Virus record (IMG/VR): IMGVR_UViG_3300020308_000002
Coordinates: 10,576 to 74,575 of that record
Length of the DNA stretch: 64,000 nucleotides
Source: a virus
Lineage: Duplodnaviria; Caudoviricetes
Strand: one strand, 5' to 3'
A model generated the notes under the pieces. The model ran no database searches and was not told where the DNA came from. It was given only the letters and a program-made list of their open reading frames with translations. This document shows positions 23,627 to 25,337 of this stretch, piece after piece. How positions within the stretch are numbered: the stretch's first letter is position 1; every line of letters starts with the position of its first letter. Both the position numbers and the translations under genes were made by a program.

Positions 23627-23789
23627 CGAAACTAACACCAACAGTCTTCAAAGACATTATCAAGATGTCTTAGACGAATGCCCTGAGTACTCTGATCCGT
23701 CCAGTGCTCATTACGATCTTGCACATTGTGCAGACCTAGCCCAAATTCGTTTCGACAGAGAAGCAGATGGCTTCTACAACGACAACTAA
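23619..23789 (+). CDS. Small acidic protein
   Basis: MSDETNTNSLQRHY..., overlaps the previous stop. Confidence 0.55.
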   Translation: MSDETNTNSLQRHYQDVLDECPEYSDPSSAHYDLAHCADLAQIRFDREADGFYNDN

Positions 23790-23806
23790 CTCCAACCCTT
23801 ATCCCC

Positions 23807-24181
23807 ATGTCTAAATTCGTCATGATGAAAACACCCTCAAGAGAAGAATTCGATGACTTCATTAACCAGTCTCCTGTAGAAATTCTTACCAAAGAAGAAA
23901 CAGAACAGGTGTATAACACTGGTGGAAAAATGTATGTCAAAGTTAATTATTCTTTCAAAGTTCCATTTTCTAAAATTCAATATGAAGAATACTGCTTTCA
24001 AAAATGCTTGATGGATCTATTGAGAAACTACTGCGAGAACCAAAGAATTCAATTTGGTGCAGTAGATGACATCCTTGCAAAGCCTCAAGACAACTTTGAT
24101 CAAGAAAAAGTACTAACTGGCGCACAGAAGTCAGTTCTATTAAATTACAGCAAGATCTGGGACAAGCTGCTTGACTCTTAA
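23807..24181 (+). CDS. Hypothetical protein with a related N-terminal motif (FDDFINQSPVEI)
   Basis: ATG 23807; overlaps the MTase start. Confidence 0.65.
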   Translation: MSKFVMMKTPSREEFDDFINQSPVEILTKEETEQVYNTGGKMYVKVNYSFKVPFSKIQYEEYCFQKCLMDLLRNYCENQRIQFGAVDDILAKPQDNFDQEKVLTGAQKSVLLNYSKIWDKLLDS

Positions 24182-25337
24182 AATACTCGATGCCTTCGCT
24201 GGTATAGGAGGATTCTCATACGCAGCCGAGAGGTTGGTCGGTGGCTTTGAAACTAAACAATTCATTGAAATCGACCCTTACTGTCAGTCAGTTTTAAAGA
24301 AGAATTTCCCCAACGTTCCTATACACAATGACATTACCACATTCCAGTCATACCAAGGAGAGTACGACTTACTCACAGCCGGATTTCCTTGCCAAGATTT
24401 GTCCGTGGCTGGATCGCAGAAGGGTATTGGAGAGGGAACTCGCAGCGGTCTTTTCTACGAAGTCATGCGAGTGGTTAGGATCGTTCGACCTCGATTCGTC
24501 TTACTTGAAAACGTTAGAAATCTTATCTCGCACAAGCAAGGGGAAACCTTCCAAGAAATTCTCTTTCAAATTGCCCAAGCAGGGTACGATGCTGAATGGT
24601 CGATTGTTTCAGCTAGAGATTTGGGAGCCTGTCACAAGCGCGAGCGAATCTGGATCATTGCCTACCCCAAACACGATGGATTCCCTCCCTCTGAGGAGCA
24701 AAGAATCCATGATCAAGCAAGTGACAGAGACAAGGCCAGGAAGGACGAAGCTATCCAATCTCAGGGAAGCAGTGAATCCAGAAGCGATTCAAATGTTCGA
24801 GGAACTTCGCAGTCCACTACTGCCAACTCCGAGAGCACAGGAACCGGGGAACACCAACCACGGTTACGGAGACAACCTGAAGGAGGGAGTTTGCAAGGAG
24901 CTGGGGATACCAACCAAGAAGTATCCGACCCTACCAACTCCGACAGCACGAGACCACAAGGACTCGGGTCCGAATCTCAATTACGAGAAGGCTCACCAGA
25001 AAAGAAGGCTAGCTGGTTCGGCGGTCGTCTTGACGAACAACCTACCAACCCCATGTGCTCGGGATTGGAAGGGCAGATCAGGCCAAGGTTTCCAGGATCG
25101 ATCAGGTGGCAGACCACGCCAACTTCCGGACGCCTTAACCCACGCTGGAGGGAGTACTTATCTCAACCCACACTTTGTAGAGGAGATGATGGGTTATCCA
25201 ATAGGATATCTCGTCTAAAGGCACTCGGAAATACTATCGTTCCGGCTTGTGCTGCAGTTCCTCTACAAAGAATCAAACACTTATCCACTTACCCCCACTA
25301 TGAAAGTGACAACTTCAAAAACAAAAACTCCTCTTGA
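24171..25337 (+). CDS. C5-cytosine DNA methyltransferase, alpha polypeptide (motifs I-VIII and X)
   Basis: LDAFAGIGG (I), AGFPCQDLS (IV), LLENV (VI), HKRERIWIIA (VIII), LKALGNTIVP (X); no motif IX in this frame. Confidence 0.92.
   Translation: MTLKILDAFAGIGGFSYAAERLVGGFETKQFIEIDPYCQSVLKKNFPNVPIHNDITTFQSYQGEYDLLTAGFPCQDLSVAGSQKGIGEGTRSGLFYEVMRVVRIVRPRFVLLENVRNLISHKQGETFQEILFQIAQAGYDAEWSIVSARDLGACHKRERIWIIAYPKHDGFPPSEEQRIHDQASDRDKARKDEAIQSQGSSESRSDSNVRGTSQSTTANSESTGTGEHQPRLRRQPEGGSLQGAGDTNQEVSDPTNSDSTRPQGLGSESQLREGSPEKKASWFGGRLDEQPTNPMCSGLEGQIRPRFPGSIRWQTTPTSGRLNPRWREYLSQPTLCRGDDGLSNRISRLKALGNTIVPACAAVPLQRIKHLSTYPHYESDNFKNKNSS
24328..25218 (+). CDS. Nested +1-frame ORF: putative MTase beta polypeptide carrying motif IX and four LPTP repeats
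   Basis: 296 stop-free codons inside the MTase; C-terminal LNPHFVEEMMGYPIGYL; LPTPNTMD, LPTPRAQE, LPTPTARD, LPTPCARD. Confidence 0.8.
   Translation: MTLPHSSHTKESTTYSQPDFLAKICPWLDRRRVLERELAAVFSTKSCEWLGSFDLDSSYLKTLEILSRTSKGKPSKKFSFKLPKQGTMLNGRLFQLEIWEPVTSASESGSLPTPNTMDSLPLRSKESMIKQVTETRPGRTKLSNLREAVNPEAIQMFEELRSPLLPTPRAQEPGNTNHGYGDNLKEGVCKELGIPTKKYPTLPTPTARDHKDSGPNLNYEKAHQKRRLAGSAVVLTNNLPTPCARDWKGRSGQGFQDRSGGRPRQLPDALTHAGGSTYLNPHFVEEMMGYPIGYLV

What the first reader, a model, noticed from the sequence alone, without database searches (positions are those of the whole stretch)
24171..25337. C5-methyltransferase split across two overlapping reading frames
Seen: the main frame has motifs I-VIII and X, but a low-complexity Ser/Gly/Gln/Glu stretch sits where the target-recognition domain and motif IX belong. 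A 296-codon +1-frame ORF (24328-25218) lies wholly inside it and ends in LNPHFVEEMMGYPIGYL, which resembles motif IX. Established: M.EcoHK31I is a two-polypeptide C5-MTase whose beta chain, carrying motif IX, is encoded in an alternative frame within the alpha gene. Inference: this is a heterodimeric phage MTase in which selection alternates between frames along about 900 bp of dual-coding DNA. Standard annotation would miss the beta chain.
Basis: partly seen in the sequence, partly recalled or inferred. Interest (0 to 1): 0.8.

Follow-up and report, generated by a model that had tools for sequence, protein, structure and literature searches.

The report
Two-frame, two-subunit cyanophage cytosine methyltransferase
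One 1.17-kb gene of this marine cyanophage is kept open by selection in two overlapping reading frames, which most likely make the catalytic half and the DNA-recognition half of one DNA cytosine methyltransferase as separate proteins, a layout proven so far for a single E. coli enzyme.

Summary
Frame A (24171-25337, 388 aa) carries C5-methyltransferase motifs I-VIII and X. They are joined by a 175-residue stretch that is poorly conserved and predicted to be disordered. Frame B (+1; 24328-25218, 296 aa) carries four LPTP modules and a motif-IX-like end.

This is neither chance nor error. Given the protein encoded in the other frame and the phage's own codon usage, frame A stays open across the recognition region with P = 7e-10. 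Frame B stays open across motifs IV-VIII with P = 7e-5. About 75 related viral loci, and four cultured phages down to 28% identity, keep the same layout. The third frame is closed.

Conservation switches from frame A to B and back to A along the gene. The B start codon is conserved and lies in a G-poor tract.

Best reading (0.75): alpha is the large catalytic domain and beta is the small recognition domain, and they assemble non-covalently. M.EcoHK31I is the closest known case, but there the recognition domain is assigned to alpha.

Translation of beta and assembly of the two chains are inferred, not shown. A double programmed frameshift is not excluded.

This scan has already noted the same layout on other DNA (368 notes, 336 genomes). 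I found no paper describing it across phages.

The parts
24171..25337 (+). alpha ORF (frame A), 388 aa, TTG start that overlaps the end of the upstream ORF. It holds motifs I-VIII, a tether and motif X.
   Evidence: The TTG aligns with the ATG of the Synechococcus phage S-H1 homologue.
24171..24668 (+). alpha catalytic core, residues 1-166, with motifs I (24195-24212), IV (24381-24404), VI (24504-24515) and VIII (24633-24665).
   Evidence: PF00145 E 6e-50. M.HhaI E 9e-28. hhalign to E. coli Dcm residues 87-290, probability 99%. AF2 pLDDT is about 80-95 over most of it, and Foldseek's top hits are M.HhaI.
24669..25205 (+). alpha tether, residues 167-345. This is the frame-A reading of the beta recognition region; it is kept open but is poorly conserved and predicted to be disordered.
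   Evidence: 0 stops where 14.6 are expected; P 6.6e-10. pLDDT 31-49. Frame-A identity is 0.61 against 0.78 for frame B across 30 independent pairs.
25206..25337 (+). alpha C-terminus with motif X (RLKALGNTIVP, 25212-25244) and the stop codon. From 25219 onward it is coded in frame A only.
   Evidence: L352, G353, N354 and P358 are invariant in 30 homologues. pLDDT rises to 92. There is purifying selection in frame A with normal synonymous divergence.
24328..25218 (+). beta ORF (frame B, +1), 296 aa, lying wholly inside alpha.
   Evidence: 307 homologues, nearly all without a Pfam domain. 21,306 representative clusters at E<=1e-3. phrog_1008 at E 5e-24.
24298..24368 (+). beta start region. The ATG at 24328 is formed by alpha codons AAT-GAC of HNDIT and lies in a G-poor tract with no Shine-Dalgarno sequence.
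   Evidence: An ATG is at the same place in 56 of 61 loci, and none has a Shine-Dalgarno-like motif. Mean G fraction in the 30 nt upstream is 0.085, against 0.20-0.32 elsewhere in the gene. In the window it is 0.14 against 0.24 for the whole gene.
24328..24657 (+). beta N-terminal extension, residues 1-110, overprinted on alpha motifs IV-VIII.
   Evidence: 0 stops where 6.5 are expected; P 7.3e-5. Alpha four-fold-site divergence falls from 0.37 to 0.22 here (Wilcoxon p 2e-4). AF2 places beta-strands at residues 47-96 with pLDDT 56-72.
24658..25161 (+). beta recognition region: four LPTP-headed modules, A (24658-24819), D (24820-24930), C (24931-25041) and B (25042-25161).
   Evidence: Frame B is the conserved frame here. 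Module families and architectures are. hhalign lines up TPTARDHKD with the TLSARYYKDG element of Dcm's variable region (weak, E 0.048).
25162..25218 (+). beta motif-IX-like end, LNPHFVEEMMGYPIGYLV, plus the stop codon TAA. The TAA lies inside alpha codons CTA-AAG of RLKALGN.
   Evidence: F283, E285, E286, M288, G289 and Y290 are invariant. There is a helix at 281-288 with pLDDT 87. The segment aligns to Dcm RRLTPRECARLMGF.

Best explanation
The locus encodes an orphan phage C5 DNA methyltransferase made of two polypeptides read from the same DNA in two frames.

Alpha (frame A) is the complete large catalytic domain. It has motifs I-VIII at the N-terminus and the motif X helix at the C-terminus. 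These are joined by a long disordered tether, which is simply the frame-A reading of beta's recognition region.

Beta (frame B) starts at a conserved internal ATG in a G-poor, Shine-Dalgarno-less tract. It first reads about 110 codons overprinted on alpha motifs IV-VIII, then four LPTP-headed recognition modules, then motif IX. The last two parts make up the small DNA-recognition domain.

The two chains assemble non-covalently around DNA, as in M.EcoHK31I and as in artificial fragment complementation of monomeric C5 methyltransferases. The enzyme then methylates phage DNA, presumably to escape host restriction.

Shown: both frames are open, each is under frame-specific selection, and the layout is conserved. 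Inferred: beta starts at 24328, the two chains form a complex, and what the enzyme does for the phage.
For: 1. In about 75 related viral loci frame A is open from motif I to X and frame B is open through the recognition region and motif IX, while the third frame is closed. Two distant cultured phages checked in the same run show the same. Two more cultured phages were checked by their ORFs.

2. Synonymous resampling expects 5-30 stops in frame A across the recognition region and 4-10 in frame B across motifs IV-VIII in nearly all loci. None is seen. Exact probabilities for the window are 6.6e-10 and 7.3e-5. T at at-risk third positions is 0 of 2676, against 26% at other third positions.

3. 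The conserved frame switches along the gene. Over motifs IV-VIII, identity is 0.85 in frame A and 0.73 in frame B. Over the recognition region it is 0.78 in frame B and 0.61 in frame A. Frame-B four-fold sites diverge almost as fast as those in non-overlapping alpha sequence, so the tether is only kept open.

4. Alpha synonymous divergence is reduced where beta overlaps it (0.22 against 0.37, p 2e-4, with Val and Leu excluded). So the beta N-terminal extension is itself constrained.

5. There is a natural control. In six more distant loci where motif X lies in beta's frame, frame A closes inside the recognition region.

6. The split follows domain boundaries. The large domain is motifs I-VIII plus X, and the small domain is the recognition region plus IX (PMC3404938). 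AF2 models alpha 1-170 and 346-375 confidently and models the tether as disordered.

7. The beta ATG is conserved in 56 of 61 loci and sits at the G-content minimum of the gene.

8. There is precedent. M.EcoHK31I needs both alpha and a nested beta (PMC2836561).
Against: There is no direct evidence that beta is translated or that it binds alpha.

The beta AF2 model is poor (mean pLDDT 55). It finds nothing in the PDB by fold or by sequence.

The motif IX assignment rests on motif-level likeness and one weak hhalign hit to Dcm (E 0.048, probability 1%).

No Shine-Dalgarno sequence precedes the beta ATG.

The published description of M.EcoHK31I puts the recognition domain on alpha, so the analogy is not exact.

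A 175-residue disordered tether inside an enzyme is unusual.
Confidence: 0.75

Rival explanations
1. The product is a single-chain enzyme made by two programmed ribosomal frameshifts. Ribosomes would shift +1 just after motif VIII (about 24655-24675) and shift back by -1 near the beta stop (about 25200-25218). This would give a canonical I-VIII / recognition region / IX / X protein.
For: The motifs lie in canonical order and spacing if read across frames. At the first junction most loci have TAC-CCC-AAx, and a CCC-A site could in principle slip +1 (that CCC codons are shift-prone is from my own knowledge).
Against: This model gives no reason for frame A to stay open for 185 codons past the shift site, or for frame B to stay open for 110 codons before it, yet both are strongly selected. 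It also does not explain the conserved in-frame ATG. There is no stop or rare codon in frame A at the junction, no conserved slippery heptamer at either junction, and the junction sequences vary. Two efficient shifts in one gene would be unprecedented. No methyltransferase of this kind appears in the recoding review PMC5009743.
Confidence: 0.1
2. This is the two-subunit enzyme, but beta starts further downstream, at Met88 (MLNG) or Met117 (MDSL). The 110-codon upstream open stretch would then not be translated.
For: ATGs at these positions are widespread, and many database gene calls start there. M.EcoHK31I beta uses several internal starts (PMC2836561). The N-terminal extension has only modest AF2 confidence.
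Against: Frame B is kept stop-free from the upstream ATG in nearly all loci (P 7e-5 in the window). That ATG is conserved in 56 of 61 loci and lies in the G-poor tract. Alpha synonymous sites are constrained across the extension. In other subfamilies beta starts 4-7 nt after alpha's start codon and runs its whole length.
Confidence: 0.12
3. Beta is a real protein with a separate function, for example a DNA-binding regulator or an anti-defence protein. Alpha would then act alone or with a host factor.
For: Beta matches no known domain. Its modular LPTP array is unlike characterised recognition domains.
Against: Alpha lacks exactly the parts that beta carries, in the canonical position between motifs VIII and X. 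Beta's end aligns with Dcm motif IX and with the T-L-S-A-R element of Dcm's variable region. In some relatives beta also carries motif X, which ties beta to the enzyme.
Confidence: 0.05
4. The feature is a sequencing or assembly artefact, or a pseudogene with two compensating indels.
For: One database protein, P0116, is a frame-crossing fusion that breaks motif VI. It looks like a read error.
Against: The layout is the same in about 80 independent assemblies and four cultured phage genomes. Both frames show purifying selection.
Confidence: 0.01

Closest known systems
M.EcoHK31I (E. coli HK31, YGGCCR; Lee, Kam and Shaw 1995, as described in PMC2836561 and PMC3404938)
   Same: It is a C5 methyltransferase made of two polypeptides. 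Beta is encoded entirely in another frame inside the alpha gene. [quoted passage not shown] Both are needed for activity, and the N-terminal part of beta matters for association with alpha.
   Different: The literature assigns the recognition domain of M.EcoHK31I to alpha and only motif IX to beta. Here the conserved recognition modules are in beta, and the corresponding alpha stretch is an unconserved, disordered tether. Beta here (296 aa) also overprints motifs IV-VIII. This enzyme is a phage orphan methyltransferase, not part of a restriction-modification pair. Sequence homology to M.EcoHK31I could not be tested because no sequence is held.
M.AquI (alpha with motifs I-VIII, beta with IX-X; PMC3404938)
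   Same: It is a natural two-chain C5 methyltransferase split within the variable region.
   Different: M.AquI is not described as an in-frame overlap of this kind (PMC3404938), and motif X is on its beta chain. Some distant relatives of this locus (L091, L094, L096, L097) do have motif X in beta's frame, that is, an AquI-like topology with overlapping genes.
Fragment complementation of monomeric C5 methyltransferases (M.HhaI, M.SssI, M.BspRI; PMC3404938)
   Same: [quoted passage not shown] Here the cut between alpha's core and beta's recognition region is at the same place.
   Different: Those splits are artificial and leave motif X on the C-terminal fragment. Here motif X stays on the catalytic chain through a tether.
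Multispecific C5 methyltransferases of Bacillus phages (SPR, phi3T, rho11s; from my own knowledge)
   Same: They are phage orphan C5 methyltransferases with several recognition units in tandem between motifs VIII and IX.
   Different: They are single-chain enzymes. Whether each LPTP module here specifies a target is unknown.

Membership tests
C5 DNA cytosine methyltransferase (PF00145 / TIGR00675) | Motifs I-VIII, including AdoMet-binding F-x-G-x-G, catalytic P-C-Q and E-N-V | tested here: met
   Alpha matches PF00145 at E 6e-50, TIGR00675 at 155.7 bits against a cutoff of 100.65, M.HhaI and Dcm at probability 99%.
C5 DNA cytosine methyltransferase (PF00145 / TIGR00675) | Motif X (G-N-x-V-x-P helix) closing the large domain | tested here: met
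   Alpha has RLKALGNTIVP. L352, G353, N354 and P358 are invariant in 30 homologues, and AF2 pLDDT rises to 92 there. Packing of this helix against the core was not inspected.
C5 DNA cytosine methyltransferase (PF00145 / TIGR00675) | Recognition domain and motif IX on the same chain, between motifs VIII and X | tested here: not met
   Alpha residues 171-345 are disordered and poorly conserved. The Pfam match covers only profile positions 2-214 of 324. The IX-like segment is in frame B.
M.EcoHK31I-type nested two-polypeptide C5 methyltransferase | Beta ORF lies wholly inside the alpha gene in another frame of the same strand | tested here: met
   24328-25218 lies within 24171-25337 in the +1 frame, and this is conserved.
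M.EcoHK31I-type nested two-polypeptide C5 methyltransferase | Alpha has motifs I-VIII and X; beta has motif IX | tested here: met
   The alpha motifs are listed in the rows above. Beta's end aligns to Dcm motif IX, but only weakly (E 0.048). Its residues are invariant.
M.EcoHK31I-type nested two-polypeptide C5 methyltransferase | Recognition domain on alpha (as the literature describes it) | tested here: not met
   The conserved frame over 24658-25161 is B, not A. Frame A is merely kept open there.
M.EcoHK31I-type nested two-polypeptide C5 methyltransferase | Both polypeptides are required for methylation | not testable with these tools
   This needs expression and methylation assays.
M.EcoHK31I-type nested two-polypeptide C5 methyltransferase | Sequence homology to M.EcoHK31I alpha and beta | not tested
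Programmed ribosomal frameshift gene | A conserved slippery site with a stimulator at the frame junction, and a zero frame that ends soon after it | tested here: not met
   The junction sequences vary. There is no stop in frame A for 185 codons, and no conserved heptamer at either junction.
Multispecific phage C5 methyltransferase | Tandem recognition units, each conferring one target specificity | tested here: inconclusive
   There are four LPTP modules in the window. At least 14 module families occur in 36 architectures among 61 loci. No specificity data exist.

The most novel reading that the evidence does not exclude
The nested two-frame layout may be the normal design of a very large clade of phage orphan C5 methyltransferases, not a curiosity of one E. 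coli enzyme. In this design the recognition subunit would be a separate, freely exchangeable chain built from LPTP-headed cassettes, each able to be read in both frames without a stop. Phages would shuffle these cassettes to change or multiply target specificity, much as an S subunit does for Type I systems. The catalytic chain would keep motix X through an evolutionarily free tether. The beta N-terminus, overprinted on motifs IV-VIII, would serve as a docking element. If so, the published assignment of the M.EcoHK31I recognition domain to alpha may also need revisiting.
Probability: 0.35. Interest if true: 0.85.

Novelty: new variant of a known kind. Interest (0 to 1): 0.68.

Why it matters
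Long same-strand gene overlaps in which both products are conserved are rare in DNA phages and bacteria. Here 891 nt are dual-coding. About 330 nt of that overlap encode conserved catalytic motifs in one frame and a constrained peptide in the other.

The case offers a clean natural system for studying how two proteins share one sequence, because three selection regimes lie side by side:
- alpha dominant with beta constrained;
- beta dominant with alpha merely kept open;
- alpha alone.

In practice, annotation pipelines record one protein and miss the recognition subunit. Predictions of phage methylation specificity from the annotated alpha chain alone would therefore be wrong. A separable catalytic chain and recognition chain with modular cassettes would also be of interest for targeted-methylation tools, the purpose for which M.EcoHK31I was used in PMC2836561.

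Tried and rejected
- The fold of beta was not informative. AF2 gave mean pLDDT 55 and Foldseek against the PDB found nothing. A profile of beta against PDB sequences gave only chance ferritin hits.
- Pfam and NCBIfam have no family for beta. The ESM Atlas returns only unnamed viral clusters.
- I looked for single-chain relatives among 307 near hits. The only protein with PF00145, P0116, is a frame-crossing read that destroys motif VI, so it is not a natural fusion.
Related loci were fetched from IMG/VR instead.
- The 1995 M.EcoHK31I paper is not held, so homology to it is untested.
- I did not build a conceptual frame-joined protein for a Pfam scan.
- Six literature searches found no description of this layout across phages.
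- Sequencing artefact and pseudogene readings are rejected.
Full report
**What is there.** The ORF listing finds both ORFs exactly as described. Frame A runs 24171-25337 (388 aa, TTG start overlapping the end of the upstream ORF). Frame B (+1) runs 24328-25218 (296 aa, ATG start).

Frame A is a C5 DNA methyltransferase by several measures:
- PF00145, E 6e-50, covering only profile positions 2-214 of 324;
- TIGR00675;
- M.HhaI residues 12-171;
- E. coli Dcm residues 87-290, hhalign probability 99%.

Its motifs are I at 24195-24212, IV at 24381-24404, VI at 24504-24515, VIII at 24633-24665 and X at 25212-25244. Between motifs VIII and X lie 175 polar, low-complexity residues.

Frame B matches no Pfam or NCBIfam model. 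It does match phrog_1008, which is labelled DNA methyltransferase (E 5e-24). After about 110 residues it carries four LPTP-headed modules and ends in LNPHFVEEMMGYPIGYLV.

Within the gene, frame A has only its terminal stop and frame B has none from 24298 to 25215. The third frame has 23 stops and the minus-strand frames have 12-23.

**It is not chance.** I held the protein of the dominant frame fixed and drew synonymous codons from the phage's own usage (14,909 codons from the window). An exact calculation then gives a probability of 6.6e-10 that frame A stays open across beta residues 111-296. The probability that frame B stays open across alpha residues 53-162 is 7.3e-5.

In the recognition region there are 53 positions where a T at beta's third codon base would create a frame-A stop. 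T is used at 0 of these 53, against 26% at other third positions. Pooled over 61 loci the count is 0 of 2676. As a control, canonical E. coli dcm has 14 stops in its +1 frame.

**The layout is conserved.** A search with beta's recognition part found 307 proteins from marine metagenomes. Identity falls to about 32%, and nearly all lack a Pfam domain. An HMM search of 1.84 billion representatives found 21,306 clusters at E<=1e-3.

I fetched 80 IMG/VR loci. In every locus where the gene is complete (about 75), frame A is open from motif I to X (286-525 codons, depending on the length of the recognition region). Frame B is open through the recognition region and motif IX, and the third frame is closed.

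Synonymous resampling per locus expects 5-30 frame-A stops and 4-10 frame-B stops in nearly all loci. None is seen. Most loci have P<1/2000, and most remain significant under a conservative within-region codon permutation.

The same layout occurs in four cultured phages, where GenBank annotates only alpha:
- Synechococcus phage S-H1;
- phage C75C1, at 28% identity;
- Acinetobacter phage ABMM1;
- the P22-like Salmonella phage S9-5.

In the last three, beta starts 4-7 nt after alpha's start codon and runs nearly its whole length.

**Selection alternates between frames.** Across 30 phylogenetically disjoint pairs:

| Region | Frame A identity | Frame B identity |
|---|---|---|
| Motifs IV-VIII | 0.85 | 0.73 |
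| Recognition region | 0.61 | 0.78 |

Frame-B four-fold sites in the recognition region diverge almost as fast as four-fold sites in non-overlapping alpha sequence (for example 0.44 against 0.48). So the alpha tether is kept open but is otherwise nearly free.

The opposite holds where beta overlaps alpha's catalytic motifs. There, alpha four-fold sites diverge much less (0.22 against 0.47 in one bin). With Val and Leu excluded, the values are 0.218 against 0.374 in 30 disjoint pairs (Wilcoxon p 2e-4). This reduction is larger than stop avoidance alone should produce, by my own codon-position reasoning rather than a simulation. So the beta N-terminal extension itself is constrained. After beta's stop codon, frame A alone is under purifying selection.

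**The beta start.** In 56 of 61 loci an ATG lies 56-62 nt before motif IV. It is formed by alpha's (H/N/D)-D codons xAT-GAY. No Shine-Dalgarno-like motif precedes it. However, the 30 nt upstream have the lowest G content of the whole gene (0.085 against 0.20-0.32). This fits structure-poor, Shine-Dalgarno-independent initiation, which is common in marine cyanobacteria (from my own knowledge).

**The junctions.** Beta's first LPTP is coded by the same bases as alpha's I-A-Y-P at the end of motif VIII. Beta's stop codon lies inside alpha's R-L-K-A-L-G-N; in most relatives it is TAG within TTA-GGN of L-G-N. Neither junction has a conserved slippery site, and frame A has no stop near the first junction.

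**Structure.** AF2 models alpha residues 1-170 and about 346-375 confidently and models 171-345 as disordered (pLDDT 31-49). Foldseek's best hits are M.HhaI and other C5 methyltransferases, over about 170 columns.

The beta model is poor (mean pLDDT 55). It shows strands at residues 47-96 (pLDDT 56-72) and a confident helix at 281-288. It finds nothing in the PDB.

hhalign of the beta profile against Dcm returns a single alignment. It places TPTARDHKD on Dcm TLSARYYKDG and LNPHFVEEMMGYP on Dcm RRLTPRECARLMGF. The positions are right, but the score is weak (E 0.048).

[quoted passage not shown] Fragment complementation works best when the cut lies between motif VIII and the recognition region and the small domain is intact (PMC3404938).

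Alpha and beta here correspond exactly to those two domains. The tether explains how motif X stays on the catalytic chain.

There is also a natural control. In six more distant loci motif X lies in beta's frame (L091, L092, L094, L096, L097, L100). In all six, frame A closes inside the recognition region, in L094 about ten codons after motif VIII by my estimate from the motif IV position. The openness of frame A therefore tracks the need to reach motif X.

I conclude that alpha and beta are separate polypeptides that assemble into one orphan methyltransferase (confidence 0.75). A double programmed frameshift (0.10) would not explain why each frame stays open beyond the supposed shift sites.

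**Comparison with what is known.** M.EcoHK31I is the only proven case of a beta chain nested in another frame of alpha. Both chains are needed, and beta's N-terminus matters for association (PMC2836561). The literature places its recognition domain on alpha and only motif IX on beta. Here the conserved recognition modules are on beta.

I could not test sequence homology to M.EcoHK31I. Six literature searches found no description of this layout across phages.

Earlier notes of this same scan record the same layout in many other genomes (368 notes in 336 genomes). I reached my reading before seeing them, and they agree with it.

**What is specific to this locus.**
- Beta starts at a conserved internal ATG at alpha's H-N-D-I-T (residues 52-56, upstream of motif IV), not at alpha's start.
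- The recognition region is a four-module array, A-D-C-B, an architecture unique among the 61 loci sampled.
- At least 14 module families occur in 36 architectures, and close relatives with 6% divergence in the catalytic part can differ by 30-40% in the recognition part. This points to cassette exchange.

**Verdict.** The feature is real and under selection in both frames. It is a new variant of the M.EcoHK31I kind. Translation of beta and assembly of the two chains still need experiments.

Noticed in passing
window 24658-25161, and loci L004-L082: The beta recognition region is combinatorial. At least 14 families of LPTP-headed modules occur in 36 different orders among 61 loci. The window has A-D-C-B and its nearest relatives have A-C-B. 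Pairs with only 6% divergence in the catalytic part can differ by 30-40% in the recognition part, which suggests cassette exchange. Every cassette is also stop-free in frame A.
   Followed up: partly
L091:1383-2607, and L092, L094, L096, L097: In these more distant relatives motif X lies in beta's frame. Alpha then holds motifs I-VIII only, and beta holds the N-terminal overprint, the recognition region, IX and X. In these loci frame A closes inside the recognition region. This is an M.AquI-like topology, but with overlapping genes.
   Followed up: partly
L100:2060-2467: A 135-codon ORF with HNH-endonuclease-like Cys and His motifs sits in the third frame, between motif IX and motif X of a two-frame methyltransferase gene. 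The pre-X segment appears twice, once at the end of alpha and once before motif X. This could be a mobile insertion or an intron-like element.
   Followed up: no
L002:807-2249, L083:1797-2711, L084:1797-2544: In phage C75C1, Acinetobacter phage ABMM1 and the P22-like Salmonella phage S9-5, the beta ATG lies 4-7 nt after alpha's start codon (ATGAATGAGC...). The two frames overlap over nearly the whole gene, and only alpha is annotated in GenBank.
   Followed up: partly
window 25216-25218, and relatives: Beta's stop codon is built from alpha's motif X codons. In most relatives it is TAG inside TTA-GGN of L-G-N; in the window it is TAA inside CTA-AAG of L-K. Beta therefore ends exactly where alpha's own constraint resumes.
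   Followed up: no
protein P0116: This metagenome protein reads alpha up to PQYVVL and then jumps into beta's frame inside motif VI. It is most likely a one-base read or assembly error, not a natural fusion.
   Followed up: no
window 24171-24181: Alpha starts with TTG inside the last codons of the upstream ORF (23726-24181; weak match to phrog_9962, unknown function). This suggests translational coupling. The flanking small ORFs have no PHROG match.
   Followed up: no
window 24328-24657 (beta residues 47-96): The part of beta overprinted on alpha motifs VI-VIII is predicted to form five short beta-strands at pLDDT 56-72. It may be a real docking element rather than a passive leader.
   Followed up: no
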